64,000 nucleotides of DNA from an uncultured Gemmatimonadales bacterium (GCA_963739455.1 CAVUAK010000001.1:1120001-1184000), one strand, 5' to 3'; shown: positions 13,740 through 45,001, counted from the first letter of the stretch. Numbers and translations are program-made. Notes: generated by a model not told the origin, from the letters alone.

Positions 13740-14303
13740 TCAGTACGGTCCGCGGCTCATGTGGCTCGCGCCGGCCGAACCCATGACCTCGCAGAAGGCG
13801 TCGGTTTCCGAATAAAGGACGCAGAACATGCCGTCCACCTGCCAGCGTTGCCACCACAGGAACATGATGCCGCGGTCGGCCCCGGAAAAATTCGGGTAGG
13901 GGTGCTCGCCATCGTATCGCGCGATGTGCGTGTGTACGGTGCCCATCCAGTTCGGTGGTCCGCAGGCATCGATCGAGCCCTGCGCCGAGACCCCGAGTGA
14001 ATCGGCATTCCCGCCCTCCAGCAGCATGACCCGCGTCACCCGCACGCTGTCCTCGCGGACCTCGCCAGCAATGCATGCAACATGTTCCCGCTTCTCCGCC
14101 GCGCTCTCGCTCCACAGGCGCCGGAGCAGGCCGCTGGCGTCGGCGCCGAAGCTGAAGCGTGCCGGGAGCTTCTGGAAGTCGGACTTGGGAACCGGGGGCA
14201 TCTGGTTCCCGCGCGGCTGCTGGTAGCCGGGCGCCGAGTCCTGGCCAGCGACGGCGGACACGGTGCCGAAGACCAGGAGGAGCAGGATGCCTGAACGACG
14301 CAG
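13740..14303 (-). CDS. Exported hypothetical protein with a JAB/MPN-like metal motif
   Basis: In-frame signal-like N-terminus (LRRSGILLLLVFGTVSAVAG), then REHVAC ... GTVHTH ... FSGAD. Start codon uncertain (CTG 14303 or GTG 14261). Confidence 0.6.
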   Translation of the reverse strand: MRRSGILLLLVFGTVSAVAGQDSAPGYQQPRGNQMPPVPKSDFQKLPARFSFGADASGLLRRLWSESAAEKREHVACIAGEVREDSVRVTRVMLLEGGNADSLGVSAQGSIDACGPPNWMGTVHTHIARYDGEHPYPNFSGADRGIMFLWWQRWQVDGMFCVLYSETDAFCEVMGSAGASHMSRGPY

Positions 14304-14341
14304 GGTAACCTCGCAGGAGCAGACTCCTGAAGGTTACCCTG
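14301..14341 (-). terminator. Long hairpin after the beta-propeller gene
   Basis: CAGGGTAACCT...CAGGAG-CAGA-CTCCTG...AGGTTACCCTG inverted repeat. Confidence 0.6.
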
Positions 14342-14365
14342 TTTTCGTCCGGGTGGCCCGGCGCG

Positions 14366-15443
14366 TCAGGGGGCGGCGCCGATCGCGACGCCCCACGGCA
14401 CGCTTCCGACCGGGATGGTCTTTACGACCGTGAACGTCGCGAGGTCGATGACACTGACGTCGTTGGACGGACCGTTGGCGCTGTAGAGCTTGTTCCCGTC
14501 CTTCGAAAGCGCAATGCCCCACGGCCGCTTGCCCACGGCAACGGACTGCGAGACCTGGTTGGTCGCCACGTCAATGGCGCTCACCGTGCCACCCCGCCCG
14601 TTGCTCACGTAGAGGCGCTTCCCATCGGGTGCCGCCAGGATGGTCATCGGCTTGGAGCCCTCGGGCATCGTGATGGTTCCCGTCACCTTCTTCGTTGCGA
14701 CGTCGATCACCGAGACGGTGCCCGCACCCTCGTTCGCCGAGTAGGCCTTCGAGCCATCGGGCAGGAACGCAACGGTGCGGGGCCGCAAGCCTACGACCAC
14801 CCGACCGAGCAGCTTCCCCGATTCGGCGTCGAGGATCGTGATGTCATGATCGGTCTCGCCGCTTACCCAGACCGACTTGCCGTCGGGCGTGAGCGTGACG
14901 CCCTCGGGTTCCTTTCCAGTCGGCACCGTCGCGAGGATCTTCCCGGTGGCGATGTCGACGATGGATGCCACGCCCGCGTCTTCGTTCGAGACGTAGAGTC
15001 TTCGAGTCGTCGGCGGACAGGGTGAACGTCTCCGGGTCGGATCCACCCGGGAGCACGCGGCTCACCGTCCGGCTTGCGGCATCGACCACCGCCACCCCGT
15101 CCTTCGTCTTGTCGGAGCCGAGCTTTTCGCAGTCCTCGTCGGACATCGCCGGCGGGCACTTGGGCGAGCCGGTGAGTGCGACGAACACCTGCTTGCCGTC
15201 GCGGCTTGTCTTCACTCCACGGGGTCGGGTCCCAACGGGAATGGTGCCGATGACCGAGTCGTTGTCGACGTTGATGATGGTGAGGTCGTGCGAGTCCTCG
15301 TTGGTGACGTAGGCATACGCCGAGGGTGGCGGCGGCGGTGGCGGCGTTGCGGGGGTCGGTTGCGGCTTCTCGCCACACCCGAGGCCAAGGATGGTGCTGG
15401 CGGCGACAATGGCGCGGTAGCGCGCCGGGCGAGAATTCCTCAT
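14366..15443 (-). CDS. YVTN beta-propeller lipoprotein (PQQ-catabolism-associated type); frameshift near 15000
   Basis: Lipobox LGLGC, AYVTNE, repeated P.G...SPDG..LYV.N blades. Confidence 0.85.
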
Positions 15444-15485
15444 GCTCTCCTTACGTCCCTGACGTCGGTTGTCACGATGCCGGTG

Positions 15486-16283
15486 CTACGGTGCGCTGAA
15501 TGTGGCCTTGTCGACGTTCCGGGCCTCGTCGAGGCCCTTCATCTGGTCGCGCCCCGTGATGCCGACGAAGATGGCCCCATCGACGTTGGACTTGTTGAAC
15601 TCCGCCCCGGTGACATCGGCGCCGGTGAAATCGGTGCTGGCCAGGTCGGCGTTCTGGAGGTTCGCGTTGACGAGCTTCGCCTTCCGCAGGGAAGCGAAGG
15701 AGAAATCGGCCTTGAAGAGGTTGGCGCCGGTGAAGTCGGCGCCTGTCAGGTCAGCGCTGACGAACTGCGCCCGCATGACGCCCATCGACTGGTTGCCGGG
15801 ATCGGCGCCGATGTTGGCATTGGCGAGGTTGGCGTCAACGAGAGTGGCGCCGCGCAGGTAGCCGATGATCCGCGTATCGCGCAGGTCGGCGCCATTGAGG
15901 TTGGCTTTCTCGATGATCGTGGCGAAGAGGCTCGCGCCGCGCAGGTCGGCCTTCGAGAGGTTGGCACGCCTGAGCGTGGTGCCGTCGAGGTTGGCCTTCT
16001 TCAGGTCGGCGCCCTCGAGCACGGCGTCGGTGAGGTCACAACTGAAGAAGTCGGAGCCCGCGAGCTTCGCCCCGGAGAAATTCGTGCCGGTGAGGATGGC
16101 GCGCTTGAAGTCGACGCCCTCGAGCACGATACCACTGAGGTCGGCGCCGGCGAGGTTGGCCGGCGCAGCATCAGTGGACTGCGCGAGACGCTCGGTGACC
16201 TGTGCGTTGGTGAGGCGCGGGGCCTGGGCAGTGGCCGCACTGGTGAGGGCCAGGAACGCGGCAGCCGCCACGGCGCCCCGCAT
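15486..16283 (-). CDS. Exported pentapeptide-repeat protein
   Basis: Signal peptide followed by many A(D/N)Lxx repeats. Confidence 0.9.
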   Translation of the reverse strand: MRGAVAAAAFLALTSAATAQAPRLTNAQVTERLAQSTDAAPANLAGADLSGIVLEGVDFKRAILTGTNFSGAKLAGSDFFSCDLTDAVLEGADLKKANLDGTTLRRANLSKADLRGASLFATIIEKANLNGADLRDTRIIGYLRGATLVDANLANANIGADPGNQSMGVMRAQFVSADLTGADFTGANLFKADFSFASLRKAKLVNANLQNADLASTDFTGADVTGAEFNKSNVDGAIFVGITGRDQMKGLDEARNVDKATFSAP

Positions 16284-16291
16284 GATGTGGC

Positions 16292-16744
16292 TCAGCCGTC
16301 GGCCTTGGCGGCCGGCCTGCCCGCCGCGACCTTGCCATCGGCGCGAAGCTTCAGGTAGACGTAGATGTTCTGGATCTTGTCCATTTCGAGGCCGAGCTGG
16401 CACCACGAGGGCATGCCCTTGTCGGGGCGCCCCTGGCACACGACCGTGATGAACGCCGCCTGGTCGGGAATGGTGCCACCGTCCTTGAGCGACACGATCA
16501 GCGCCGGCGCGAAGGAGGTGCCGACACCGTACTCGCCATGGCATCGGGAGCAGTTGAGCTCGAACTGCTTCCATCCCTGATAGGCGTTCTGGGGAATCGT
16601 GTCCCGGTGGCCCGCCTCGGTCGACTTGATGTAGGCGTTCCAGTTGACACTGTCCTGCGCCTCTGCGCGGACGGTGCCGATGATCGTGAGGGCCGCGATC
16701 ACGGCGATGGCGCGGGCGGCAAGGCGAATCGGCGAGCTGGTCAT
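16292..16744 (-). CDS. xoxG: XoxG/MxaG-like cytochrome c, likely electron acceptor of XoxF
   Basis: Signal peptide, CSRCH, KGMPSW; third gene after xoxF and xoxJ. Confidence 0.75.
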   Translation of the reverse strand: MTSSPIRLAARAIAVIAALTIIGTVRAEAQDSVNWNAYIKSTEAGHRDTIPQNAYQGWKQFELNCSRCHGEYGVGTSFAPALIVSLKDGGTIPDQAAFITVVCQGRPDKGMPSWCQLGLEMDKIQNIYVYLKLRADGKVAAGRPAAKADG

Positions 16745-16769
16745 GCGGCTGACAGATCCTTTCATGGGT

Positions 16770-17630
16770 TCAATTGCCCTTTGCCGCGGGCGGCCCCGCG
16801 ACCTCCAGGGGCAGCAGCGGCACATTGTAGCTTTGCAAGATCTTCACCATGTCTCCACCGCGCGTGTCGATCACGGCCTGGAGACTGTCGCGGAACTTGG
16901 TGTCCCGCCGGCGGACACCCATTCCCATGCTGTAGACGAAGGGAATCCCCTGCACGGTGTCCTCGGCGACCCGCTGCATGACGAGTGGCACCTTGCTCTG
17001 CTGGACGAAGTACCCCGCGATCGGGCCCCACACAATCGCGACGTCGATGCTGTCCCCGAGGGCCTTGAAGATGTCGTCGGGGCGGTAGATGTCACTGTAG
17101 TTGGTCGGGAAGCCGACCAGGTTGCCCACCACACCGAACGAGCTCATGGCCATGGCCGGTGGGGTATTCTCGGCGTCCGAGTTGAGAATGTGCACCCCGA
17201 TGCGCAGGTGGCGGAAGGTGGTGTCCGCCAGCGACGAGAGATTGAGCCCGCTGTCCTTGCGGTACACGATGAAGTAGCCGGACCGGAAGTAGGGGCCGGT
17301 GACGCCGGCGATGTCGAGGCCGCTCGGTGCAGTGATGGCGACGTCGCAGTAACGGCCATTGAGCGCCCGGCTGAAGAACCCGCGCCGCACCGGCCACCAG
17401 GCGTACTCCACGCGCCATCCCCAGGTCTGCGCGATCAATTCTGCGATCTTGATCTCGTACCCCTCACCGGCCTGGTTGGAGGCAGGAAGGTTGTCGGGGT
17501 CGGCACACACGCGAAGCACTCCGGCTTCCCGGCCGGCCTTGAGCTGTGTGCTGTGCAGGGAGTCTTCCTGCGCGGCGGCGCTGCTGGCCGTGATGGCTAT
17601 GGCGACTAGGGTGACGATGCCGGTGCGCAT
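16770..17630 (-). CDS. xoxJ: XoxJ/MxaJ periplasmic binding-fold protein
   Basis: LRVCADPDNLP.SN..GEGYE, RRGFF, PYFRSGY, AIVWGPIAGY, MGMGVRR. Confidence 0.92.
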   Translation of the reverse strand: MRTGIVTLVAIAITASSAAAQEDSLHSTQLKAGREAGVLRVCADPDNLPASNQAGEGYEIKIAELIAQTWGWRVEYAWWPVRRGFFSRALNGRYCDVAITAPSGLDIAGVTGPYFRSGYFIVYRKDSGLNLSSLADTTFRHLRIGVHILNSDAENTPPAMAMSSFGVVGNLVGFPTNYSDIYRPDDIFKALGDSIDVAIVWGPIAGYFVQQSKVPLVMQRVAEDTVQGIPFVYSMGMGVRRRDTKFRDSLQAVIDTRGGDMVKILQSYNVPLLPLEVAGPPAAKGN

Positions 17631-17687
17631 GGAGCCCGACTCCTTGAGCGGCCAGGCGGAAGGTGCCCGGCGCGAGTAGGCAATAAT

Positions 17688-17740
17688 AACGAAGGCGCGG
17701 ACTGTTGGGGCAATGATACCCCGCAGCCGGCGCCTTCGTT
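17688..17740 (-). terminator. Large stem-loop between xoxF and xoxJ (terminator or mRNA stabiliser)
   Basis: AACGAAGGCGC...GGGG...CCCC...GCGCCTTCGTT with U-rich flanks on both sides. Confidence 0.65.
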
Positions 17741-17803
17741 TTGAAGCCTGTCAGACTGCACCGTGGGAGCCCGGCCGAAGCCGGACTCTCACGGATGGAG
17801 CAT

Positions 17804-19648
17804 TTAGAGCGAGAACACGGTCAGCACGCCGCCCTGCGTCGAGAACTGCGCGGCGTCGCCGAAGGCGCCGAGCGCGCCGAGACCGGCGGTCGGATCTTCA
17901 GCGCCGATGCCCGCGGCCACGCCGATGCCAGCCCAGCCACCGATGCCCGAGAGCACGGCGACATACTGCTTGCCATCAGGCGCAACGTAGGTCATCGGGT
18001 TGCCGATGATGCCCGACGGGGTCTTGAACTGCCAGAGGACCTTGCCGGACTTCTGATCGACAGCCTTGAGCCAGCCTTCCATGGTGCCGTAGAAGGCGAT
18101 GCCGCCGGCGGTGGTCAGTGCGCCACCGTAGGCTGCGAGCGGCTCCTTGATCTCCCACACCGTGGACGCCGCGCGGTCCTTACCGGCCGTCGGATCCCAA
18201 GCGAGGAACCGGCCACGGAACCCGCCCGGGCCAGGGAACATGCGGACGATCGCGCCAACGTACGGCTGACCGGCCGTGTACTTCACCTCTACGCCCTCGT
18301 AGTCCATGCAGATGTGGTTCGTGGGGACGTAGAACAGGCCGGTGATCGGCGAGTACGCAGCAGGCTGCTGGTCCTTGAAGCCGATTGCGGCCGGGCAGAT
18401 GCCCTCGGTGTTCTTCTTCGCGGTGGTACCAAACCGCGGATCCTTCTGCGGGATACCAGTCGCCAGGTCGACCTTGGTCGCCCAGTTGACCGGGCCGTAG
18501 GGCTCGGCCTTCGTGAGCTTGCCGTTGGTGCGGTCGATCGTGTAGGCGAAGCCGTTACGGTCGAAGTGCTGGAGCAGCTTCTGACCGCCCTTGTCGAACA
18601 GGATGTTCTCGTTGACGCCGTCGTAATCCCACTCGTCGTGCGGCGTCATCTGGTAGGCCCAGGCCACCGTACCATCAGCCGGGTGGCGCGCGAAAATGGT
18701 CATGGACCACTTGTTGTCGCCAGGCCGCTGGTCGGGGTTCCACGAGCCCGGGTTACCCACGCTGTAGTAGAAGAGGTCGAGCTCTGGGTCGTAGGAGTAC
18801 CAGCCCCAGGTCGTGCCGCCGCCGATCTTCCACTCGTTGCCCGTCCACGTGGTAACGCCGAGGTCCTTGCCCTTGTGCGAGGCATAGTTGGCGTTGCCGA
18901 CACCGTTCACGATGCCGACTTCGTCATCCGGACCGGTGCTGTACTTGGTCCAAATGTTCTTGCCGGTGTTCACGTCGAACGCGGTCACGCGACCACGGAC
19001 GCCGAACTCACCGCCAGAGATGCCGGCCATGACCATGTCCTTGATCACGATCGGGGCGTTCGTCATCGTGGCGCCCTGCTTGTAGCCGTTCGCCTCGACG
19101 CCGGCGTTGGACTTATCCGGGTGCTTCGACTTCCAGAGTTCCTTGCCCGTCTTCGCATCAAGAGCCAGCAGCTCGCCCTGCAGCAGCTGAATGAAGATCT
19201 TGCCGCTCTTGTGGTAGGCGGTGCCACGGTTCACCAGGTCGCAGCACGCGATAGGAATCGCGTCCGGGGACTGGTTCGGCGTGTACTGCCAGATGATCGG
19301 CGCGCCCGGCTTGGAAAGATCAAGCGCGTAGACCTTGTTCGGGAACGAGGTGTGCACGTACATCACGTTCCCGATGACGAGCGGGTTGCCCTCGTGACCG
19401 CGAAGGGTGCCGGTGGAGAAGCTCCAGGCCGCCTTCAGGTTTGCCACGTTGGCAGTCGTGATCTGCTTGAGCGGGCTGAACCGCGACAAGCCGTAATCAC
19501 GGCCCGTCATGACCCACTCGCCCTCAGCGGCGCCATAGGTCCACGCCCCTGTGCGGGCCGCCGCCTGGGCGTTGGCGGACGCGACGGCGAAAACGAGCAT
19601 GCTCGCCGCAATACCGCCAGATATCACCTTCTGGCTTCTACGGTTCAT
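17804..19648 (-). CDS. xoxF: Lanthanide-dependent PQQ methanol dehydrogenase XoxF
   Basis: Signal peptide, LRGHEG, vicinal ACCDLVNRG, SGGEFGVRG, GNPGSWN, PHDEWDYDGVNE (D-Y-D, extra Ln-binding Asp), C-terminal GG.LTVFSL; GAGGT RBS before ATG 19648. Confidence 0.96.
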   Translation of the reverse strand: MNRRSQKVISGGIAASMLVFAVASANAQAAARTGAWTYGAAEGEWVMTGRDYGLSRFSPLKQITTANVANLKAAWSFSTGTLRGHEGNPLVIGNVMYVHTSFPNKVYALDLSKPGAPIIWQYTPNQSPDAIPIACCDLVNRGTAYHKSGKIFIQLLQGELLALDAKTGKELWKSKHPDKSNAGVEANGYKQGATMTNAPIVIKDMVMAGISGGEFGVRGRVTAFDVNTGKNIWTKYSTGPDDEVGIVNGVGNANYASHKGKDLGVTTWTGNEWKIGGGTTWGWYSYDPELDLFYYSVGNPGSWNPDQRPGDNKWSMTIFARHPADGTVAWAYQMTPHDEWDYDGVNENILFDKGGQKLLQHFDRNGFAYTIDRTNGKLTKAEPYGPVNWATKVDLATGIPQKDPRFGTTAKKNTEGICPAAIGFKDQQPAAYSPITGLFYVPTNHICMDYEGVEVKYTAGQPYVGAIVRMFPGPGGFRGRFLAWDPTAGKDRAASTVWEIKEPLAAYGGALTTAGGIAFYGTMEGWLKAVDQKSGKVLWQFKTPSGIIGNPMTYVAPDGKQYVAVLSGIGGWAGIGVAAGIGAEDPTAGLGALGAFGDAAQFSTQGGVLTVFSL

Positions 19649-20002: not shown

Positions 20003-20030
20003 AGGATACGCCCCCACCAGCCGATGTCAA
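20003..20030 (-). promoter_or_regulatory. Sigma70-like promoter for the xox operon
   Basis: TTGACA-N16-TATCCT on the minus strand, about 350 nt upstream of xoxF. Confidence 0.6.
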
Positions 20031-20180
20031 CAACCGGTGCGGATTGCCCCTAAGTCGGGCGCTGCCAAATGCCTAACGCTTCGATTCCCGTAACGTGAGC
20101 GTGGAGGCCGACCGTACGCCCTGAGATGTTTCGGAGGTTGCATCCTGAGGCGCCTAGAATACGGCGTGAACCCGGTGCTG

Positions 20181-21158
20181 TCAATCTGTTGAGGCGCCGC
20201 GTGTCAGGAGTTGTACCACCGCGCCCCGGTTTGCGAAAGCTCCAGACACCACCAAACCACCCGTTCCCACCTGCTCCCTTGCCACCGCCGCCAGGCGGTC
20301 GGCGTCTCCATCACTGCCTGCCAAGCCGTAAACTGCCGGTCCCCAGGAGCTCTGGCCCACCCCCGCCGCCCCGCTTTCACGGAAGCGTGCAATGAGCTGC
20401 GCGGTGGGGCCGGGGGCGAAAGGACCCCCTTGGCTGGCCGCGAACCACTGACCGGTGACGTGCTGCACTTCGGCCAGTGCCGTCCCGAAGTCGGGCAGGT
20501 CTTCCTCGACGAGCGCAGGCAACAGTTGCATCAGAACGAGGTGGGCGATGTGTTCCACCTCACGTTCGGGTGGTGCCGGGAGGGTACGAAACGCCTCCGC
20601 CTCGGCATCACCACTCAATCCGGGGCTGCTGGCCGGTACCGCCAGCACGCAGCGCCATGACTCCGGCATCGGGAGCCGGGTGAGCAGCGGGGCCAGCCCG
20701 GCGCCTTCCCGCCGCCCGCCCTCAAGCACGAAGCCGCCCCGTTCAAAGAGCCACGTGCCGACGCCCGATCGTGCACCGCGACTGACCTGCCGGGCCAGCG
20801 TGGCCGCGTCGTGAGGCTGGCCGTACAGCTCTGCCAGGGCGCGCGCCACACTGAGGGCCAGCTGGGTGCCGGAGCCCAGGCCACTGTGGGCGGGCATCGC
20901 CTGTGTAATCCGGATGCGCGCCCCCCCAGGTAACCCTGACGCGTCGCCGTATCTCCGGGCGAAGCCAAGCGCGCGTTCGGCGTCCGGCCCGGTGGCGAAG
21001 TAGCCATCGGCCCGCTCGGCCTCGAGCTCGAGCGCCGGCGACGGCACGGCGGCACCCATTCCGCCAAAGCGCCGGCCAAGCATGCCGCGAAGGTCAAGCA
21101 CGCCGAAATGGAGGCGCGCTGGCGCGCGCACCCGGACCCGCTCCACCGGCACGCTCAT
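20181..21158 (-). CDS. mptG: Beta-ribofuranosylaminobenzene 5'-phosphate synthase (GHMP kinase family)
   Basis: APARLHFG.LDL, RRFGG.G, HSGLGSGTQ, RGARSG.G...F..GG, GQSSWGP. Confidence 0.93.
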   Translation of the reverse strand: MSVPVERVRVRAPARLHFGVLDLRGMLGRRFGGMGAAVPSPALELEAERADGYFATGPDAERALGFARRYGDASGLPGGARIRITQAMPAHSGLGSGTQLALSVARALAELYGQPHDAATLARQVSRGARSGVGTWLFERGGFVLEGGRREGAGLAPLLTRLPMPESWRCVLAVPASSPGLSGDAEAEAFRTLPAPPEREVEHIAHLVLMQLLPALVEEDLPDFGTALAEVQHVTGQWFAASQGGPFAPGPTAQLIARFRESGAAGVGQSSWGPAVYGLAGSDGDADRLAAVAREQVGTGGLVVSGAFANRGAVVQLLTRGASTD

Positions 21159-21726
21159 CCGGGTACGGCCTGCGTTGCGGGGTGTGCCGCCACGTACTCG
21201 TTGAGCAGGGCCCACGCCTCCTGCTCCCTGGTCCCGGCGGTCTTGTCGATCAGGACCTGGAGTCGAGTCGAGTTCCTCGCGCACCTGCGCGGGCGGGAGC
21301 AGGTGCAGCCGGGTCGACAGGATGGCGGCCTCAAGTACCGCATGCTTCGCGCGGTTGAAGCCGATGAACTCGCGCCCCCGCCCCCGATGCAGCACGCGGG
21401 CGTCGATGCGCGAGCGAGGCGGGGTGTCGTCGATTGTCTCTACCTCGAGTTCGTGCCAGGAGCAGGCTGCCTCCAGGACGGCCCCGCGGACATGCTCGGC
21501 CGGACGCCAGGGGAACTGCGGACTGCCGATGGCGGCCTGGGCGAATAGCAGGACATCGTCGATGAGGTTGAACACCGCGTGCCCATGCGCAGAGAGATTG
21601 CGGAACGTCGTCGTCTGGAGGAACGGCTTCAGCACCAGGCGTTCGCTCGCCCCACTCCACGCCCATCGGCGCAAAGTTGACCTGCCCCGCGCCGTCCTGC
21701 GTGGTGACGATGCCCTCCACGATCAT
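21155..21726 (-). CDS. DUF447 family protein (Orf19 of H4MPT clusters); two frameshifts
   Basis: MIVEGIVTT...NFAPMG, KPF..TTT..NL, FIGFNRAKHAVLEAAIL.TRL, KTAG..E..AW. Confidence 0.85.
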
Positions 21727-34430: not shown

Positions 34431-34462
34431 GTCCAACTCCTGGGTGAGAACGAGGTCCGCCG

Positions 34463-36246: not shown

Positions 36247-37145
36247 GCGCTCGTGCCGCCCATGATGTTGCGCAGCTTGAAGTGATGCGGACCGAGCTTG
36301 CCGCCGTAGTTGCCGGCAGTGATCGACACGACGCCGGGACGGCAGGCCGCGTCGATCCCGGCGCGCATCGACGCACTGATCGCAGCCGCGTCGAGCCCGT
36401 TGACGACGATCTCGAGCACCGAGTTCACGGTGTCCGGTAGTGCCGTGGCGGTGATCGCGCGCAGGGTGGGACAGTACGCGTCGTTGGTGGAAGCGATCAT
36501 CGTCTTCGAGGTCTTGCTGCCCACCTTGGAGCCGCTCCGGACCACGCCGCCCGGAAACGGCAGGATGATGCCCGGCATGCCGTGCATGGCATCGACCGCT
36601 GCTTCGGCGGCGGCGAGGGCCTTGTCGGCGTCTTCAGCGAGGATCAGGAAGTTCCCGCCGCCGACGCACTTCACCATGCCAAAGGTCTCTGCGACCAGGA
36701 ACTCGCCTTCCATGACGGGGATGCGCCAGAATCGCTGGCCGCCGATCACCTTGCTCGCCTGGAAGCCATCACCGAAATAGCGGAGGGCGGATCCAACCTT
36801 GAGGCGGTCGGGCGCATCGGGAAGACCGTCATAGCAGGCGGTGGTGGGACAGGTCAGGATGGTCTGCCCGACCCGCTCGATGAGGCGCTTCGCCAGCTCG
36901 TCCTTGGACATCACCATCAGCAGGATGCTCACACCGGGCCGCCCATCGGGCGTCTCAGTCTCGGTGAGCTCGCGCTCGATGCCCGCCTCGCACTTGCAGC
37001 CGATGACCGAGGTGGCAAAGCCGGTGAGCTTCAGCGCGGCCTCGCGCACCCAGCGCGCCGAGCGCGCGGTGATGATCAGCCGCGCCGAGCGCATGGTGAA
37101 TGCCTCGGCGAAGGTGTCCTCGATAAAGACATTGCGGATCTTCAT
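36243..37145 (-). CDS. fhcD: Formylmethanofuran:H4MPT formyltransferase (FhcD/Ftr)
   Basis: IEDTFAEAF, GFATSVIGC.CEAGIE, TPDGRPG, RVGQ.ILTCPTTA, PFPGGVVRSGSK, AGNYGGKLG. Confidence 0.95.
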   Translation of the reverse strand: MKIRNVFIEDTFAEAFTMRSARLIITARSARWVREAALKLTGFATSVIGCKCEAGIERELTETETPDGRPGVSILLMVMSKDELAKRLIERVGQTILTCPTTACYDGLPDAPDRLKVGSALRYFGDGFQASKVIGGQRFWRIPVMEGEFLVAETFGMVKCVGGGNFLILAEDADKALAAAEAAVDAMHGMPGIILPFPGGVVRSGSKVGSKTSKTMIASTNDAYCPTLRAITATALPDTVNSVLEIVVNGLDAAAISASMRAGIDAACRPGVVSITAGNYGGKLGPHHFKLRNIMGGTSA

Positions 37146-37146
37146 G

Positions 37147-38791
37147 TCAGTCGATGCCGAGCGGCCCGTTGGGCAGCCCCTGCACGGGGTAGTGGTCGAA
37201 CTGCACCGTCGAGTACTGGTCGAAGTGCGACCGCAGGCCGGGGACGATCGCCTCGTCGTATCCGGGGCGCAGGTACAGGCGCCGGCCGGTCGGCGTGCGC
37301 CGGAGCTGACCCTCTTCCACCACGAGCTCGCCCTGCTTCACCACGTAGCGCGGGCTCGCAAACATCTCCGCGATGTCATCCTGCCGGGTATAGATGGTCA
37401 CGTCGGCATCGGCGCCAACGCCCAGGTGTCCCTTGTGGCGCAGGCCGAGGAGGCGCGCCGGCCCAGCGCGGGTGATGATGGCGATCTCTCCCAGCGTGAA
37501 TTGCCGGTCGAGCCCATCGAGCAAGGCACTGCCCGCCAGGAATTTCTGGTTGACCAGCTTGAGGCGCTCGTCGCGAGCGGTGCGGTCCATGAGCAGCTGG
37601 ATCAGCTGCGGGATAGGCCAGGAACGACCCGCCGTTCGGGTGGTCGGTGGAGAGGACCACCCTCCAAGGATCCTTCGCCAGCAGGAAGAGCTCGAGGCCG
37701 ATCGCCCACTGCAGCGCGGAGACCGCCGCCTTCTCCTTGTACTCGAGCGGCACGATTCCGCAGCCTGTCTCCAGCTCGACGTCGATGTTGACCCACTTCC
37801 GGCCGCTCGACTTGTGGAGCAGGTACTCCACCGGCCCGTCGGCGGTGACGGTGGTGGCGGGACCGAACATGACCTGTCCCACGTCCACGCTCAGCTCGGG
37901 GTGGACGTTGATCCAGTCGGAGAGCTCACGAGCCGCCGACTTCCATCCACCCCCGGCACCGTACGCATGGAACTGGAGGTGGGTGAAGTGCGCCCGTCGT
38001 CCTTCGAGCGCCCTGAAGCTCTCCATGGTGGTCGTCACGTTGCCGGGCATGCCGAGGTTGTTGGCATGGATGTGCACCGGATGCGGCAGGGCCAGCGTGT
38101 TCGCGGCGTCGGTGAGCGTCTCGAGGATGCCGCGCGCCGTGACCCGGGAACTGCCGAGCGGCTCGTCGAGCCCGGTGATGTTCCGCTGCGGCGTCTTCCA
38201 CGCCTCGACGCCACCCGGATTGACGATCTTGATCGCGTATCCGCCCGTGGCGCCGAGGAGCCACGCCGCGTAGTCGCGCGCGCGGTTCCGCTCGCCGGCA
38301 TCGATCAGCTTGAGGAGGTAGTCATCGTTCCCCATCAGCACGAAGCACCCGGCATCGATGCACGGCGTGTCGCTCATTTCGTGGTGCGTGTGCCGCGCCG
38401 TGAGCGGGGCAATGGCGGCATCGAATACCGTGGTGTAGCCGAGGCCGGCGTAGCGATACCCGGTGGTGAAGGTGCTCGGAACGGTGCCACCGGTGCCCGA
38501 GCGCCCACTGTGACCCCCGGCCAGGCGGGGTGCCGGTGCCGGGTCGGCGCTGTGCTCTTCAGGCAGGAGGCGGCGCGCATGATTGCAGCTCGAGCTGGCA
38601 ATATGACTGTGAATGTCCACACCACCCGGCATCACGATCATGCCACGCGCATCGAGTACCGGTGCGCCGGCGGGCAGGTCGGCCACGACGCGGCCATCCG
38701 CGATGCAGATGTCCCGCACGTCACCATCGATCCCGTTGGCGGGATCGTGGACCGTGCCCCCGGCAATGCGGAGCGTGGACAGCGGCGTCAT
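37147..38791 (-). CDS. fhcA: Formyltransferase/hydrolase complex subunit A (amidohydrolase); frameshift near 37605
   Basis: MPGGVDIHSH, GY.YA.LGYTT, KIVNPGG, PH..H.H.NNLG.PGN, THLQFH, STDHPNGG, TR.GPA.LLG, GADAD. Confidence 0.94.
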
Positions 38792-40040
38792 GCCGTCGCC
38801 TCGCGGAGGAGATTCTTCACGGCTTCCTCGAGCGCGACAAGCACCGTGACCGCCGTGCGGGAACCATCGAGCACGGGAGTCAGTGGCAGCGGAATGTCGT
38901 CCATGCGATAGGCCGTGCCCCCTTCATGGATACCGGCGCGCCCGGTGTCGATGGCGACGCGCGGATCGCCCGGGGCCTCGCTTGCTCCCGGTCCGATCAC
39001 CACGGTCGGAATGCCGGTGAGCGCGGGCAGGTTGCGCCAGTCACCGAGGACCAGCGCGACGTCGACACTGGCGAGATCATCCAGGCCGCGCCGGTCGAGC
39101 GGAGTACGATGGTGCGCCGCTGCGGAAGTCGACCGCGAAGGGGAAGCCCGCCTGCCAGGTCAGCAGCGACTCGACGCCATTGCGGTTGTCCCCGTTCCGC
39201 AGCGTGTAGAGTGCCGCGCGGGTCGGGCCATTCAGCGCCTGTGCCAGCGCGACCAGTCCCTCGGCTCGCTGCGACGGGCGCGCCGCGTCGCCATCCTCGC
39301 CCCCAGCCACGATGGCCACGTATTTCGCCGCCACGAGCCGCGCAGCCAGCTCGGCCAGGCCGGCAAGCTTCGCGGCCTCGGGCGCGCTGCCGCCGGCAAC
39401 AACGGAGCGGAGCATGCTGAGCGCCGCGAGTTCTCCCTCGGCTGGCAGCTGAAGCGTCGCGTCGGCACCATCGACGTCGCCGTCGGTAGCAATGCGTACG
39501 CTCACGACGGCGCGCGATGCGCGTCCACCGGGGACATGCGTGCCCTTGGCATTGACCAGGCGCTCGATGAGCCGTGGATGCGTGCGAGCCGGGTCGGCAC
39601 CCCAGAAGAGGACGAAGTCGGCGCGGTTCTTGAGTTCACCGAGCGTTGCCGCGGCCCGGCCGCGCCGCTGTCCTGCGAGGATTCCCGCCGCGGCGGCGCC
39701 GCTCGTTGCGGTGTCAGTCGGCCGCATGCAGGCGGTCGGCGATCGACACGGCTGGCTTGAGCGCCTCGATGGTGAGGCCGGGCCCGAGGCAGACCAGTAC
39801 GCGACCGCGGGAACCGGCGAGCATGGACGTGGCGGCAGCGATCGCCGCCTCGAACGTGACATCCTTGCCGCCGGCGCGGATGCGATCGGGCACGACGCCG
39901 GAGCCCAGCCATGCGCTCCCAAGTGAGCAGGCAGGCAGGAGATCGGCGACGCCGTTGCCGCGGACGGCAACCGTCACGTCATCACACAGCAACCCGCAGC
40001 CGAGGCAGGTGATGCCGACCCTCCGCTCGGCGTTGCTCAC
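38788..40040 (-). CDS. fhcB: Formyltransferase/hydrolase complex subunit B (FwdB-like); frameshifts
   Basis: CLGCGLLCDD, TLGE.KNRAD...FWG.DP..THPR, W..GFP..VDF, G..E.GTAYRMD.IPL.L. Confidence 0.9.
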
Positions 40041-41179
40041 GATGTACACGCCCGCACTATCGATGCAGCGCCTTCCCTGAGTGCGCCGTAGCAGCCCTCG
40101 GCGGATGCGCCGCTCGCGAGCACCGTGCAGATGGGGGCTCCCCGTGGCACGACGCTCCCGGTTGCCGGCACGTCCCTGATGTTGCCATCTACAAGCCAGG
40201 CGTCGGTGTTCGGCATGACACAGTCGGAAGGCGCGAACACGACGGCCTTGCCGACAACCCCATCCAGGGTGCCACCATGTGCGATGAGCGTGCCCTCGCT
40301 TCCCTCCACGTGGGCGGCAAACAACGGCACCGGCATTGAGGGCTCCACGAGCTCCGCCGCCGCGGTCCAGCGCGGGTTCACCTCGATTACCACGGCCGCA
40401 CCATCACGCGCGATAAAGTCGATCCCGTTCACCCCACGGAGTCCGAACGCGCGGGTGAGGGCCTGCGCAGCGGCCGTGGCATTCGCGAGCACTTCATCCT
40501 CCGCTGTGAGCACTGGCGCTCCAGCACTTCCCAGAAGATTGCCGCACCAGCGATGACCGGTTGCGCCGAAGGCGGCGTCACCGATGAGCTGGCGTGTCAA
40601 TCCGAGCGCCACGGCGTCATGGCCGTTTGCCAGGAATAGCAGGGAGGCTGGCTCGCCATCGACCCACTCCTGCAGGAACTCCCCATCCAGCAGCGGCTCC
40701 GCTGCGCGCCAGTGCCGGACACCATGGCCGCCGCCGCTGTGCCTCGGCTTGGCCACCAGCGGGCGCCCTGGCGCGCGGGAGGCAGCATCGCCGCTGCCGG
40801 CATACACGGGGGCCGCGTGAAGGCCAGACGCTTCAAGCACTTCGTGCACCCGTTCGGCGCGCCGCACCTCTCGCAGCACGCTGGGTGTGTTGCCGAGAAC
40901 TGTGCGACCGAGTGCGAGCCGCTCCAGTGCCTCGGGATGGTTCTCGAAGTTGGAGGTGTACGCCACCGCGTCATACGGCATCGTCACGTAGTCGGCCACG
41001 GCACCGGGCTCGAACGGCGCCAGGGTGAGGTGGCGCGCCGGCGCAGGCACTGCCTCGATGAGGTCCCGGTCCCCGTAACCATCGGCCGTGAGCACCTCGT
41101 ATCCCGCCGCGAGCGCCGAGCGCGCGAGCGAGCGGACCGACACTCCGGTGACGAGAATGCGGGGCAGCGACGTCGTCAT
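40037..41179 (-). CDS. ATP-grasp protein (OrfY/MyfB-like)
   Basis: G.SVR.LA.SA..AGY....D.YGD.D, KP...GGG.G, QE.V.G.P.S, G.NGIDF, IEVNPR, G.PICTV. Confidence 0.88.
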   Translation of the reverse strand: MTTSLPRILVTGVSVRSLARSALAAGYEVLTADGYGDRDLIEAVPAPARHLTLAPFEPGAVADYVTMPYDAVAYTSNFENHPEALERLALGRTVLGNTPSVLREVRRAERVHEVLEASGLHAAPVYAGSGDAASRAPGRPLVAKPRHSGGGHGVRHWRAAEPLLDGEFLQEWVDGEPASLLFLANGHDAVALGLTRQLIGDAAFGATGHRWCGNLLGSAGAPVLTAEDEVLANATAAAQALTRAFGLRGVNGIDFIARDGAAVVIEVNPRWTAAAELVEPSMPVPLFAAHVEGSEGTLIAHGGTLDGVVGKAVVFAPSDCVMPNTDAWLVDGNIRDVPATGSVVPRGAPICTVLASGASAEGCYGALREGAASIVRACTS

Positions 41180-42225
41180 GCGAGGTCCAGCGCGTGCCGC
41201 GCCGCATCAGGTGTTACGACGTAGAGATGATCCAGGGCGGTGCCTGACGCCTCCCGTATCCGCATCGTCTCCACCAGTTCCCGGTGCTGCCCACCGGCCA
41301 GCCCATCCGCCAGCAGTGCCGCGCCCTGGGCTCCCTGCTTGCCGTGTGACGCGAAGCCGGTGAGGTGCCGCACGGGGCCCAGGTCACCGAGCGCCGCCGA
41401 GAGTCGGTCGCGCACGGCCGGATCGGAAGCGATGCGCCCGGACACCAGGACCTCGCTGGCCAGTGGTGCAGACACGAGCAGTTGACGCACTGCCTTCACC
41501 GCGCCCTCGATGAAAGCGTCGAAACCGGCTCCGGCGGCATGGCGGTCAGAGGCCGCCACGGTCGTGACCCCGCCCTGGAAGAGCATTGCCTTGTCGACCG
41601 TGCCGGCGAGGTATGCCACCTCGCCGTCGAGCGCGCCGGCAGCCTGCCAGCCGATCGGTCCGCTGCTCCCGCCAATGCCGTCGACCACCTGGCCGTGCTG
41701 CACCGCGATCGCCGCGGTGAATGCGCCACCGAGCTCGAGCAGCACGAACGCGGTGTCCCGCGGATGCGCGCCCAGGCGATGCGCCTGGTCGTAGATGCCG
41801 AGCGCGGCAGCGCACAGCTTGTCGGACGGTGCCCAGGTCGATGCGATTGATCTTGCGATACTCGGGGACGGTGTCGAGGTGGATGACACCGGGCAGCATG
41901 ACCAGGGGGAGCCCGGCGTCGGCGAGTGACCGTACCAGCAAGCTGCAGCCCGCCGATGCCGCCCTGCTCGCCCTTCCGCGCGAGGAACGCGAGGCGCAGG
42001 CTGTGGTCGCTTGTCTCGGCGGCGCGGCGGAGCGGGCAGACCATAGCCCGACAGGCCTGCCACCAGGTCGGGGGCGCCGTGGACCGATAGCGCCGCGGCG
42101 AAACCGGCCGGATCGGCGAGGGCATCCGCGGTCGGCCATGATCGATCGATGACCAGCTGGCCGCCCGACAGGCCGCACACGTCGATCGAGACCGTGCCCG
42201 GGTCGATACCGACGACCCGCGGCAT
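41176..42225 (-). CDS. DUF1464 family (ASKHA/butyrate-kinase-like) protein; frameshifts
   Basis: VGIDPGT.S.D, SGYG.P, PGVIHL.TVP.YRK.N.ID.GT.DK, LELG..FTA, DG.GG, G..DGE.AY, KQ.AQGAA..ADG.AGG. Confidence 0.85.
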   Translation of the reverse strand: MPRVVGIDPGTVSIDVCGLSGGQLVIDRSWPTADALADPAGFAAALSVHGAPDLVAGLSGYGLPAPPRRRDKRPQPAPRVPRAEGRAGRHRRAAACWYGHSPTPGSPWSCCPVSSTSTPSPSIARSIASTWAPSDKLCAAALGIYDQAHRLGAHPRDTAFVLLELGGAFTAAIAVQHGQVVDGIGGSSGPIGWQAAGALDGEVAYLAGTVDKAMLFQGGVTTVAASDRHAAGAGFDAFIEGAVKAVRQLLVSAPLASEVLVSGRIASDPAVRDRLSAALGDLGPVRHLTGFASHGKQGAQGAALLADGLAGGQHRELVETMRIREASGTALDHLYVVTPDAARHALDLA

Positions 42226-43109: not shown

Positions 43110-43148
43110 TGAGTGTCAGTCGGTCGTCAGTCGTGGGAGGCCAAGCAA

Positions 43149-43184
43149 CCGGGGGGCGTCCCGAGACTCTGGGCCGCCCCCCGG
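43149..43184 (-). terminator. GC-rich hairpin between fae and mtd
   Basis: CCGGGGGGCG...CGCCCCCCGG inverted repeat with no U-tail; may be an mRNA stabiliser. Confidence 0.55.
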
Positions 43185-43209
43185 CGCGAAGACTGGTGAA
43201 CCGCCTGGC

Positions 43210-43722
43210 TCAGCCTTCGGCGCCGCTCGCGAACGGGTGACGGGCCGCCTTGTACTTGGCAAGCACGTCATCCAGCGTCGGCTGGCCCTTCAGCGCGCGG
43301 GAGATGGACTCCTTCGTCGCCTTGTAGTTGAAGTCGTAGATCTTCTTGTCGTCGGCCGCCTGCCAGTGGATGAACACGCCCACGAGCACGACGTAGTCGT
43401 TTGCCTTGTCCTTCGGGATCGTGCCATCGGCGACGCTGTCCATGACGGCGCGCGCCACGGCGGCCTGGGCCGGGCCAAACATCTGGACGGCCTGCTTGGC
43501 GCCCTTGATGGTGACCTTGTTGAAGAGCAGCGTGTCCGGCTTGCACGCCAGGTTCGGCGTCACGACCGCGAGGAGCGTGGTGAAGCCATCGGAATTGCGC
43601 GACAGGGCCTGGGTGAAGGCCGCACCAGCGTGTCCGCTCTTGGAGCCGATGATGAGATCGATATGCGCGATCTCGTTGCCATCACCGACCAGCGATTCGC
43701 CGATGAAAAAATCCGCAGCCAT
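43210..43722 (-). CDS. fae: Formaldehyde-activating enzyme
   Basis: [58 protein letters not shown]. Confidence 0.97.
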
Positions 43723-44218
43723 GGAAAGCCTCCGTTTACGGTTGGTCGAGCCCAGGGAACCGGGGAACTGCCTTCAACATCGAGGTTGCAACAAAACCGG
43801 GGAGCAGCTGACGGCCTCATCGGCCGGGGGCGGTCCCGCCGCAGCGGGTAGCTCTTCGAGGATGCCTAGTATGGAAGCCACACATGAGGGTGTCAAGCCG
43901 GGATCCGGGGAAGGTGACCGAGCGTGACCTCCGTGTGATCCCCGAGTGCCGGGAATTGTCCTCGCTGTCCTCCCTCCCGGACGTCTTTCCGATGGTCGAA
44001 AAGCCTAAGCGACTTCCAATCATGATGTTACGACGTGGCACGGCGCTGGCCACTTCAGCGGTCCGTTGTCCCCCTGAGTACGCAAACGATTGTGAGGTTG
44101 GGCGGTACAACGAGAAGAAGCTGATTGTCGCGGTCAACACGACGCAGATCACAATTCTGGAAAAAGGGTCGACTGACCTTCCCTGCACCTCCCCGGTGCT
44201 GGATCATCCCGATCCGGG

Positions 44219-45001
44219 TCAGTCTCCTCTCTTCAAGTGCCCCTGCCTCCCCGGTGGGGGCGCTTGGCTATCCCCGTCGCGGAGCGACACGCCGCAGTGC
44301 GTCCGCAGCACCGCCTCCACGAACCATTCCCAGCCGGCATACTCGCGATACTGATCCGACGTCACTCCCGCCAGCTCCTTCAGTCGCCGCCGGAGAGTCC
44401 ACAAGTCGAGTCCCATGCGCTCGGCGGCCTGTGCGCTGGTCATGCGCAGGTTGCCGGCACCGGTGGCGAGGTGGAACACGTCCCGCCATGCGGAGGCATC
44501 GAGGTCGCCCAGCGAATTGAGACGGCCGGCAAGCCAGCGCACGCCGAAGGCCACTCGTGCCAGGCCGCGCGTCGGCGCTGACATTGCGATGGTCATCGGC
44601 ATGGCGATGGACGGTCTCCGGAGCCGTGCCGCCACATAGGCTGCCACGAGCTCAGGATCGGCCGACCGGCGACTGCACACGGCGTGCTGCGCCATCGACG
44701 GAAGCGAGAGGCCGTCCTCGGGGCGGCGCACGAGGAAGGCCGGTGTGCCCGGCACGCCATCGAGTTCGCGAAGGACGTCCGGGTCGCTCGCCGACGCGCG
44801 CGTGACCACGAGCAGCGGCGCCCACGGCGCGCCGCGCAGCGTGCTGCTCACGCCCCGGATCAGGCTGGCGTCCTTGTCGACGTCGAGGATGAAGATGCTC
44901 CCGAGGGGCAGCACACCGGGCACGAGCGCGAGCGCCGTGTAGGGCGGCATCGCGACCCGCAGCGGCGGGTCAATCTCGGCAGGGACCGGTGGCGTAATCA
45001 T
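44219..45001 (-). CDS. Hypothetical protein with C-terminal HTH, possible regulator
   Basis: TSAQAAERMGLDLWTLRRRLKELAG resembles an HTH; N-terminal region resembles a degenerate receiver domain. Confidence 0.55.
   Translation of the reverse strand: MITPPVPAEIDPPLRVAMPPYTALALVPGVLPLGSIFILDVDKDASLIRGVSSTLRGAPWAPLLVVTRASASDPDVLRELDGVPGTPAFLVRRPEDGLSLPSMAQHAVCSRRSADPELVAAYVAARLRRPSIAMPMTIAMSAPTRGLARVAFGVRWLAGRLNSLGDLDASAWRDVFHLATGAGNLRMTSAQAAERMGLDLWTLRRRLKELAGVTSDQYREYAGWEWFVEAVLRTHCGVSLRDGDSQAPPPGRQGHLKRGD

What the first reader, a model, noticed from the sequence alone, without database searches (positions are those of the whole stretch)
13740..45001. Contiguous 31-kb lanthanide methanol-oxidation plus H4MPT/methylofuran island in a probable Gemmatimonadota genome
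Seen: xoxF (DYD Ln site)-xoxJ-xoxG directly downstream of fae-mtd-DUF1464-orfY-fhcBADC-mch-...-pabBA-orf19-mptG. Established: these genes encode methanol -> formaldehyde -> methylene/methenyl/formyl-H4MPT -> formate and the cofactor synthesis, best studied in Proteobacteria, Planctomycetes and NC10. Inference: the host is Gemmatimonadota-like, and this is a self-contained methanol-energy module with a gene order and accessory set unlike the proteobacterial clusters. No formate dehydrogenase, pqq, serine-cycle or RuMP genes occur in the window, so it may support energy-only methylovory.
Basis: partly seen in the sequence, partly recalled or inferred. Interest (0 to 1): 0.85.

Follow-up and report, generated by a model that had tools for sequence, protein, structure and literature searches.

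The report
Methanol-eating gene cluster of Gemmatimonadales
This is a real 31-kb set of genes, in a common soil bacterial group, that is predicted to burn methanol with a rare-earth-metal enzyme; it was described with the same gene order in 2016, and because the rest of this genome also carries genes for building cell carbon from methanol, the organism is likely a full part-time methanol eater rather than an energy-only user.

Summary
Observation confirmed: xoxF (lanthanide motif D341-Y-D343)-xoxJ-xoxG-like lies directly downstream of a fae-mtd-fhcBADC-mch plus methanopterin/methylofuran-synthesis block. The host is Gemmatimonadales. It is not new: Butterfield et al. 2016 (PMC5103831) drew this cluster in Gemmatimonadetes with the same gene order and detected its proteins in soil. 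It is not a recent island: a same-genus genome is colinear across both borders; fhcD occurs in 85 of 401 phylum genomes, 70 of 166 in the host's family. The 'energy-only' idea fails: elsewhere the genome has pqqABCDE, NAD-linked formate dehydrogenase, FtfL, FolD, SHMT and a serine-cycle cluster (sga-mcl-mtkAB-hpr-ppc, gck) plus a divergent isocitrate-lyase-like gene. MtkA tracks the cluster: 66 of 85 fhcD genomes versus 4 of 316 others. The many frameshifts are most likely assembly errors. Best reading: facultative lanthanide-dependent serine-cycle methylotroph; growth is untested. Extras not found in my literature searches: the phylum-wide counts, the odd lyase, and close Fae relatives in Vicinamibacterales.

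The parts
44219..45010 (-). hypothetical protein upstream of fae, possible regulator (weak HTH signal in the G219 orthologue only); not conserved in most relatives
   Evidence: PF02954 E 0.007, below cut-off; function inferred
43210..43722 (-). fae, formaldehyde-activating enzyme
   Evidence: TIGR03126 246.9 bits over cut-off, PF08714
42232..43109 (-). mtd, methylene-H4MPT dehydrogenase (2 frameshifts); MtdA/B/C type not tested
   Evidence: PF09176; intact 298-aa frame in G219
41176..42225 (-). DUF1464 protein
   Evidence: PF07318 192.9 bits
40037..41179 (-). orfY-like ATP-grasp protein (MfnD-related)
   Evidence: PF02655; NF040722 below cut-off
35422..40022 (-). fhcB-fhcA-fhcD-fhcC, formyltransferase/hydrolase complex (B, A, C frameshifted; D intact 36243-37145)
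   Evidence: TIGR03129, TIGR03121, TIGR03119 (430.9 over cut-off), TIGR03122; intact in G219
34466..35443 (-). mch, methenyl-H4MPT cyclohydrolase (3 frameshifts)
   Evidence: TIGR03120/PF02289 in pieces; 83-94% to intact G219 frame
33662..34511 (-). tandem EthD-domain protein
   Evidence: TIGR02118
31924..33625 (-). orf5 (RimK/MptN-like ligase) and orf7 (CitG-like)
   Evidence: NF040720, TIGR00768, PF01874
31386..31913 (-). 6-pyruvoyl-tetrahydropterin synthase family protein
   Evidence: PF01242
   Evidence: TIGR00734 116.9 bits, PF00977
29098..30704 (-). orf9 (MfnF-like) and orf21 (MfnE-like kinase), methylofuran synthesis
   Evidence: TIGR03123 over cut-off, NF040623, NF040622
28378..28955 (+). 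orf22, MfnB-like 4-HFC-P synthase (2 frameshifts)
   Evidence: 61-67% to G219 frame, which hits PF04476 100.4 bits
27165..28334 (-). SDR-family reductase and pterin-4a-carbinolamine dehydratase; the SDR is a candidate pterin reductase (inferred)
   Evidence: PF13561, PF01329, NF002017; NF006598 below cut-off in G219 orthologue
25773..27162 (-). orf20, dihydropteroate-synthase-like (4 frameshifts)
   Evidence: TIGR00284, PF20123, PF14251
23610..25751 (-). pabB and pabA, p-aminobenzoate synthesis (frameshifted)
   Evidence: TIGR01824/TIGR00553, PF00117
21736..23602 (-). CocE/NonD-family hydrolase, present in some relatives only
   Evidence: TIGR00976; in G219 and G126, not in G202, G129, G355
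20181..21726 (-). orf19 (DUF447) and mptG, beta-RFAP synthase
   Evidence: PF04289, TIGR00144 over cut-off
17804..19648 (-). xoxF, 614-aa periplasmic PQQ methanol dehydrogenase with lanthanide-type D-Y-D site
   Evidence: TIGR03075; best solved relatives 4mae 697 bits, 6oc5 684, 6dam 653, MxaF 559-597
16770..17630 (-). xoxJ, periplasmic binding protein
   Evidence: TIGR03871 231.5 bits over cut-off
16292..16765 (-). xoxG-like monohaem cytochrome c
   Evidence: CSRCH motif; TIGR03874 E 1.5e-13, below cut-off
14366..16283 (-). pentapeptide-repeat protein and YVTN beta-propeller protein (1 frameshift)
   Evidence: PF00805; TIGR03866, TIGR02276
13740..14309 (-). conserved hypothetical protein with a signal-peptide-like start; last gene of the block
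   Evidence: no family; 45-74% in G219, G202, G129, G355

Best explanation
The cluster is the lineage's inherited methanol-oxidation module, and the host is likely a facultative, lanthanide-dependent methylotroph that would use methanol for both energy and cell carbon. Predicted route: periplasmic XoxF (PQQ from the unlinked pqqABCDE, a lanthanide in the E214/N299/D341/D343 site, helped by XoxJ) oxidises methanol and passes electrons to the XoxG-like cytochrome; formaldehyde is captured by Fae on H4MPT and oxidised by Mtd, Mch and FhcBADC to formate, with the pterin and furan carriers made by the co-clustered genes. Formate is either oxidised to CO2 by the unlinked NAD-linked FDH or activated by FtfL and FolD to methylene-THF and fixed by the serine cycle (SHMT, Sga, Hpr, Gck, enolase, Ppc, Mdh, MtkAB, Mcl), with glyoxylate likely regenerated by a divergent isocitrate lyase. 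Shown: genes, motifs, synteny, distribution. Inferred from family knowledge: every reaction, the metal, flux and growth.
For: Island genes and XoxF motif. Same genome: pqqA-E at C1:609180-612313; FDH gamma-beta-alpha with mobB at C1:2506590-2512061, alpha TIGR01591 948.7 over cut-off 666; FtfL (23, 30); FolD (73); SHMT (72); cluster C2:199285-208437 with Sga-like aminotransferase, Mcl (best solved match the malyl-CoA lyase 5ugr, E 5e-39), MtkA (NF010647 673.7 over cut-off 604), MtkB-like, Hpr-like, Ppc and glycerate kinase; enolase and Mdh; ICL-like C2:400541-401752; second XoxF-type enzyme (D-F-D) with a cytochrome cL-like gene on C3. Across 401 phylum genomes: fhcD 85, this XoxF type 76, MtkA 70; 74 of 76 XoxF genomes have fhcD; 45 of the 46 with both on one contig have them within 30 kb; 66 of 85 fhcD genomes have MtkA against 4 of 316 without. 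Butterfield 2016 reports the cluster, the serine pathway and proteomic detection in soil Gemmatimonadetes. 13C-methanol RNA-SIP labelled Gemmatimonadetes in rhizosphere (PMC9258066). Contigs from RNA libraries of three studies cover xoxF at near identity (presence only).
Against: No isolate or growth test is known to me; all steps are predicted. 13 of 74 genomes with XoxF and fhcD gave no MtkA match, so oxidation without this assimilation module may exist in the lineage (or reflect gaps). The genomes are kin, so co-occurrence is not independent evidence. The ICL-like protein is far below curated cut-offs (NF011645 186.5 of 562) and its activity is untested; no Ccr over cut-off. Sga and Hpr assignments rest on family plus position (best models BhcA 596 of 650; glyoxylate reductase 309 of 455). 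Frameshifts are about twice as dense inside the cluster (25 in 29.2 kb) as in the flanks (10 in 25.6 kb; one-sided binomial p = 0.02). SIP labelling can come from cross-feeding and concerns the class, not this genus.
Confidence: 0.75

Rival explanations
1. Energy-only methylovory: methanol is oxidised to CO2 as an extra energy source while carbon comes from other organics; the serine-cycle-like cluster serves another purpose (e.g. glycolate/glyoxylate or acetate assimilation) or is little used.
For: 13 of 74 XoxF+fhcD genomes lack an MtkA match; the assimilation genes are unlinked; the aminotransferase's best NCBIfam model is BhcA; in dilute soil methanol a mixed diet is plausible (general knowledge).
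Against: The sga-mcl-mtkAB-hpr-ppc/gck grouping is the signature serine-cycle set (recalled from Methylorubrum), and MtkA is almost confined to genomes with the oxidation cluster (68 of 70 in XoxF- or fhcD-bearing genomes); FtfL and FolD link formate to it.
Confidence: 0.15
2. The H4MPT block mainly detoxifies formaldehyde from demethylation of plant or methylated compounds, with XoxF a secondary addition.
For: Related fae-mtd blocks occur in Vicinamibacterales, mostly without a close XoxF within 10 kb; 11 of 85 fhcD genomes gave no match to this XoxF at the strict threshold; XoxF position varies (inverted in G282, upstream of fae in G032).
Against: XoxF and fhcD co-occur in 74 genomes and stay within 30 kb in 45 of 46 testable ones; XoxF was the most abundant protein of a soil proteome (PMC5103831).
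Confidence: 0.06
3. In this particular genome the cluster is decaying into pseudogenes.
For: 15 of 33 genes frameshifted; rate about twice the flanks, p = 0.02.
Against: 30 of 31 cleanly aligned indels are insertions in this assembly, mostly single bases outside homopolymers; housekeeping genes lon, ispH, IF-2, truB, enolase and Mdh are split too; contigs of independent runs lack the extra base at or within 5 bases of five of the sites (14998, 21645, 23797, 24980, 25867); xoxF, xoxJ, xoxG, fae and fhcD are intact and 89-98% identical to G219.
Confidence: 0.04

Closest known systems
Gemmatimonadetes methanol-utilisation contig of Butterfield et al. 2016 (PeerJ 4:e2687, PMC5103831, Fig. S3; seen: passages, Results part 2, text of supplements S3 and S4)
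   Same: Order read from the Fig. S3 labels: fae, mtdB, two hypotheticals, fhcB, A, D, C, mch, alpha/beta barrel, ATP-binding, phosphorylation-domain, 6-PTS, hisA/hisF, THMPT protein, kinase, hypothetical, SDR, pterin dehydratase, hypothetical, pabB, glutamine amidotransferase, hypothetical, beta-RFAP synthase, methanol dehydrogenase, methanol oxidation protein, pentapeptide, YVTN, hypothetical - gene for gene the order here. PQQ synthesis, FtfL and serine-cycle genes in the same genomes.
   Different: This genome adds a CocE/NonD hydrolase and an upstream hypothetical, has other flanks (HrpB-like helicase and pfk side instead of mutS/ddl/rhomboid), and belongs to another genus-level lineage; the figure itself was not viewable, only its garbled text.
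Methylorubrum extorquens AM1 H4MPT/methylofuran cluster, xox1 operon and serine cycle (recalled; solved relatives 6oc5, 5ugr)
   Same: Same enzyme families and the same predicted flow methanol - formaldehyde - formate - serine cycle.
   Different: Here xoxFJG is fused to the H4MPT block; order differs from alphaproteobacterial loci (fhc reversed - PCD - mptG - mtd - orfY - mch - orf5 - orf7 - fae); no mxaI neighbour; no Ccr, so an ICL-type rather than ethylmalonyl-CoA route is inferred; FolD present.
XoxF2 of Methylacidiphilum fumariolicum SolV (PDB 4mae; clade label recalled)
   Same: Best solved match (697 bits); all metal and PQQ-site residues conserved.
   Different: 6oc5 (clade XoxF5, recalled) scores almost as well (684), so clade membership is open; Butterfield placed Gemmatimonadetes XoxF in a new clade. 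Verrucomicrobial methanotrophs fix CO2 by RuBisCO (recalled), which was not found here.
XoxF3 systems of Acidobacteria and Gemmatimonadetes (PMC10875860; passages)
   Same: Lanthanide-type MDH with XoxJ/XoxG in the same phylum.
   Different: Those clusters go with cox/ctaG/NRAMP genes, and the paper's main text never mentions methanopterin; this one goes with the H4MPT block.

Membership tests
XoxF lanthanide-dependent methanol dehydrogenase | PQQ MDH-family sequence closer to XoxF than to MxaF or ExaF/PedH | tested here: met
   4mae 697, 6oc5 684, 6dam 653 bits versus MxaF 559-597 and ethanol dehydrogenases about 330
XoxF lanthanide-dependent methanol dehydrogenase | Extra Asp two residues after the catalytic Asp, with Glu, Asn and vicinal Cys-Cys | tested here: met
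   D341-Y-D343, E214, N299, C135-C136 aligned to 4mae
XoxF lanthanide-dependent methanol dehydrogenase | xoxJ and xoxG neighbours, no mxaI small subunit | tested here: inconclusive
   xoxJ over cut-off and a cytochrome follow directly; PF02315 found in 0 of 6 genomes but no control rang
XoxF lanthanide-dependent methanol dehydrogenase | Lanthanide-dependent methanol oxidation by the protein | not testable with these tools
   needs an enzyme assay
XoxF clades 1-5 | Placement in a reference tree | not tested
   named reference sequences could not be brought into a tree; PDB scores to 4mae and 6oc5 are nearly tied
Bacterial H4MPT/methylofuran formaldehyde oxidation pathway | fae, mtd, mch, fhcABCD | tested here: met
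   intact in G219
Bacterial H4MPT/methylofuran formaldehyde oxidation pathway | Cofactor genes mptG, orf5, 7, 9, 17, 19, 20, 21, 22, orfY, pabAB | tested here: met
   (orf names recalled, matched through Pfam/NCBIfam families)
Bacterial H4MPT/methylofuran formaldehyde oxidation pathway | Dihydromethanopterin reductase (DmrA/DmrB/AfpA) | not tested
   none among the 85 window ORFs; the conserved SDR is a candidate; rest of genome not searched
Serine-cycle methylotroph | Sga, Hpr, Gck, Ppc, MtkAB, Mcl, SHMT, enolase, Mdh | tested here: met
   MtkA over its equivalog cut-off; Sga and Hpr by family and position
Serine-cycle methylotroph | Formate to methylene-THF link (FtfL plus FolD or MtdA/Fch) | tested here: met
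Serine-cycle methylotroph | Glyoxylate regeneration (ICL or ethylmalonyl-CoA pathway) | tested here: inconclusive
   ICL-like protein nearest to solved ICLs (E 1e-43) but below curated cut-offs; no Ccr over cut-off
Serine-cycle methylotroph | Growth on methanol as sole carbon source | not testable with these tools
   needs culture or single-cell isotope tracing
Horizontally acquired genomic island (recent) | Foreign composition, tRNA/integrase border, absence from close kin | tested here: not met
   GC as flanks, no tRNA, present in 4 of 5 same-genus genomes by fhcD and 5 of 5 by XoxF, colinear with both flanks in G219
CBB- or RuMP-type methylotroph | RuBisCO or hexulose-phosphate synthase | tested here: not met
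   PF00016 0 of 1, TIGR03128 only E 1e-4 fragment; genome 83.7% complete

The most novel reading that the evidence does not exclude
About a fifth of Gemmatimonadota species, and whole genera of one large Gemmatimonadales family, are autonomous lanthanide-dependent serine-cycle methylotrophs - the first such lineage outside Proteobacteria to grow on methanol alone - with one clade closing the cycle through an undescribed, divergent isocitrate lyase (here without malate synthase), and the fae-mtd module having crossed between Gemmatimonadota and Vicinamibacterales (Acidobacteriota).
Probability: 0.35. Interest if true: 0.55.

Novelty: already known. Interest (0 to 1): 0.27.

Why it matters
The cluster itself adds little to the 2016 description. 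What this check adds is scale and a testable target: the module is common and vertically kept in an abundant, mostly uncultured soil and sediment lineage (fhcD in 70 of 166 genomes of the host's family), and it travels with a serine-cycle cluster, so these bacteria are predicted to be a real sink for plant-derived methanol and should be enrichable on methanol plus La or Ce. That makes a ten-year-old prediction directly testable, and points to two unstudied enzymes: a XoxF of unsettled clade and a divergent isocitrate-lyase-like protein.

Tried and rejected
Energy-only reading: rejected on genome content. Chimeric join: rejected; G219 is colinear over about 57 kb including both borders and an independent contig bridges the left border (piece 13484-14006). 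Read-level support exists only for window 12000-26500; the rest of the cluster and its right border stayed unchecked at read level, and whether relatives lacking the cluster have an empty site was not examined. No public run held half or more of the sampled words (best share 0.20), so habitat is not named. Depth was not used to rank expression (contigs only). The idea that the divergent ICL is a methylotrophy-specific gene was weakened: 50 of 53 carriers have XoxF or fhcD, but 17 of 22 fhcD+MtkA genomes lacking it have an ordinary ICL, as do 10 of 14 genomes without the cluster, so it looks like a lineage-specific replacement; malate synthase is in 22 of 29 genomes tested, though not found in G000, G206 or G219. 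Ethylmalonyl-CoA route: Ccr 0 of 22 and below cut-off in G000. pmoA/amoA and mxaI searches were uninformative because no control rang. Fae tree is the quick tree only (79 rows; L039, L060 and L076 dropped for coverage); it groups Gemmatimonadota and Acidobacteriota apart from 7 proteobacterial rows but leaves their branching open, so no donor is claimed; the Mtd tree timed out; FhcA, Mch and XoxF trees against Planctomycetes, NC10 and Rokubacteria were not built (no such sequences were in hand). No structure or complex prediction was run.

Full report
OBSERVATION. The window is C1:1120001-1184000 of a 3.6-Mb, 4-contig genome (83.7% complete, 0.44% contamination). Scanning 85 window ORFs against NCBIfam and Pfam confirms the block between 13740 and about 45000, almost all on the minus strand: fae, mtd, DUF1464, orfY, fhcB-A-D-C, mch, an EthD-domain protein, orf5, orf7, a PTPS-family gene, orf9, orf21, an SDR, a pterin dehydratase, orf20, pabB, pabA, a CocE/NonD hydrolase, orf19, mptG, then xoxF, xoxJ, a cytochrome c, a pentapeptide-repeat protein, a YVTN propeller and a hypothetical. 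Two plus-strand members, orf17 (HisA-like) and orf22 (MfnB-like), lie inside. The orf numbers are recalled names attached to the families the calls returned. XoxF is an intact 614-aa protein with C135-C136, E214, N299 and D341-Y-D343; its best solved relatives are lanthanide enzymes (4mae 697 bits, 6oc5 684, 6dam 653), ahead of MxaF (559-597). Its clade was not fixed.

HOST. GreA from the flank is 78% identical to that of a Gemmatimonadales MAG, 53% to a Gemmatimonadaceae MAG, 40% to an Acidobacteriota, 34% to an Anaerolineales and 30% to an Alphaproteobacteria MAG (5 genomes). Named XoxF relatives are Gemmatimonadales or Gemmatimonadota with one exception. The host is Gemmatimonadales.

NOT AN ARTEFACT, NOT A RECENT ISLAND. 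A same-genus genome, G219, is colinear from greA to lon, across both borders, with intact frames; nucleotide identity is 77-86% inside and 78-84% outside; GC matches the flanks; no tRNA. Against G219, 15 of 33 cluster genes and 9 of 26 flank genes are frameshifted (25 shifts in 29.2 kb against 10 in 25.6 kb, p = 0.02). The excess counts against my reading, but 30 of 31 clean indels are insertions in this assembly, housekeeping genes such as lon, ispH, IF-2, enolase and Mdh are split as well, and contigs from independent runs lack the extra base at or beside five of the sites. These are most likely assembly errors; an earlier unreviewed note on this genome said the same of another gene. Read-level support covers only 12000-26500; the remainder stayed unchecked.

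DISTRIBUTION. In 401 phylum genomes (one even draw, G000 included): fhcD 85, in three families (70 of 166 in the host's family, 12 of 94, 2 of 7); this XoxF type at E <= 1e-230 in 76; 74 have both, and in 45 of the 46 with both on one contig they lie within 30 kb. Of 53 Gemmatimonadota Fae loci, 29 show the whole fae-to-mch order within 10 kb, 10 carry an inserted inverted block, the rest are mostly cut by contig ends; 26 have the same helicase upstream (my count). Five of seven larger regions fetched keep mptG-xoxF-xoxJ-xoxG-pentapeptide-YVTN as here; in G282 xoxFJG is inverted and in G032 it lies upstream of fae. 15 of 16 Acidobacteriota loci have fae next to mtd, 12 with DUF1464, and a quick Fae tree joins them with Gemmatimonadota apart from Proteobacteria without resolving who nests in whom: a transfer between the phyla is likely, direction unknown.

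REST OF THE GENOME. pqqA, B, C, D, E at C1:609180-612313. NAD-linked FDH (gamma, beta, alpha; alpha 948.7 bits over cut-off 666) at C1:2506590-2512061, FtfL about 12 kb away, and an FdhF/YdeP-family enzyme on C3. FolD and SHMT. On C2:199285-208437 a cluster of Sga-like aminotransferase, malyl-CoA lyase (best solved match 5ugr), MtkA (NF010647 673.7 over cut-off 604), MtkB-like, Hpr-like reductase, Ppc and a divergently read glycerate kinase. MtkA is in 70 of 401 genomes: 66 of 85 with fhcD, 4 of 316 without; kin are not independent, so this is a pattern, not a test. No RuBisCO, no convincing Hps, no Ccr over cut-off. A roughly 380-aa ICL-like protein (nearest solved ICLs E 1e-43; below curated cut-offs) is in 53 of 401 genomes, all in the host's family, 50 of them with XoxF or fhcD; other methylotrophy-gene carriers mostly have an ordinary ICL (17 of 22). 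A second XoxF-type enzyme (D-F-D) with a cytochrome lies on C3.

MECHANISM. Shown: the genes, motifs, synteny and counts above. From established knowledge of these families: XoxF-PQQ-lanthanide oxidises methanol in the periplasm; Fae, Mtd, Mch and Fhc take formaldehyde to formate on H4MPT and methylofuran; FDH yields CO2 and NADH; FtfL and FolD feed methylene-THF to the serine cycle. Inferred: that these run together in this organism, that the ICL-like protein regenerates glyoxylate, and that it can grow on methanol. I put 0.75 on facultative serine-cycle methylotrophy, 0.15 on energy-only use, 0.06 on formaldehyde detoxification first, 0.04 on decay.

WHAT IS KNOWN. Butterfield et al. [quoted passage not shown] S3 labels give the order found here. 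Diamond et al. 2019 (PMC6784897; passages) found XoxF abundant in Gemmatimonadetes; PMC10875860 (passages) describes their XoxF3 clusters; PMC9258066 (passages and one section) reports 13C-methanol labelling of the class; PMC10994693 (passages) recovered one Gemmatimonadales bin from methanol-enriched soil without tying it to methanol use in the passages seen. Six searches (open-licence PMC and bioRxiv only, listings read) showed no phylum-wide survey, no account of the divergent ICL and no Gemmatimonadota-Vicinamibacterales Fae link; subscription papers and unread supplements (for example those of Diamond 2019) may hold them.

VERDICT. Real, correctly read, already known; the energy-only twist is contradicted by the rest of the genome. 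Interest 0.27, kept above the floor by the phylum-wide pattern and two testable enzymes.

Noticed in passing
G000 C2:199285-208437 (L129:13285-19143, L130:1232-4437): Compact serine-cycle cluster gck | sga-mcl-mtkA-mtkB-hpr-ppc; MtkA tracks the H4MPT cluster across the phylum.
   Followed up: yes
G000 C2:400541-401752 (L132:1348-2559): Divergent isocitrate-lyase-like gene (RTCGH in place of the usual KKCGH loop, motif recalled) inserted among polysaccharide genes; a conserved clade (72-95%) confined to the host's family; no malate synthase found in G000, G206, G219.
   Followed up: partly
G000 C3:119292-121556 (L099:9292-11556): Second XoxF-type dehydrogenase (D-F-D motif, best match 4mae) followed by a cytochrome cL-like gene; three further PQQ-family dehydrogenases on C1.
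   Followed up: partly
G129 C2 (L119-L120), G126 C3 (L109); also G150, G319, G390, G141: Some relatives carry a second, divergent fhcBADC set in tandem, or only the divergent set, together with an inverted block of extra orf9/orf5/orfY-like genes - possibly a second methylofuran variant with its own Fhc.
   Followed up: no
L032, L034, L038-L040, L044, L049, L052, L055, L056, L058, L062, L064-L066, L070: Vicinamibacterales/Acidobacteriota carry fae (74-83% identical) mostly with mtd, DUF1464 and orfY in the Gemmatimonadota order: likely inter-phylum transfer.
   Followed up: partly
L060, L071 (Anaerolineales), L069 (Caldilineaceae): Chloroflexota MAGs hold fae (64-65%), in two cases with DUF1464, mtd and orfY.
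   Followed up: no
G219 C7 (L108:5687-6085): A second xoxG-like cytochrome sits between the pentapeptide and YVTN genes in the same-genus genome but not in this window; G070 has two xoxF copies 4 kb apart.
   Followed up: no
window 15486-16283: The pentapeptide-repeat protein is conserved behind xoxG in five relatives (57-84%); its matches to Qnr and PipB models are far below cut-off and reflect the repeat only. Role unknown.
   Followed up: no
G000 C2:188717-193307: Cyanophycin synthetase-like gene in pieces with a cyanophycinase-like and isoaspartyl-dipeptidase-like neighbours, judged by eye from translations; not scanned.
   Followed up: no
L098:35-520 (G000 C1:2504035-2504520): Aminoglycoside 6'-N-acetyltransferase-like gene near the FDH operon; scores near or below family cut-offs.
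   Followed up: no
whole assembly: Single-base insertions split many genes (about 0.4-0.9 per kb in this window), so gene-absence or pseudogene claims on this genome need care.
   Followed up: yes
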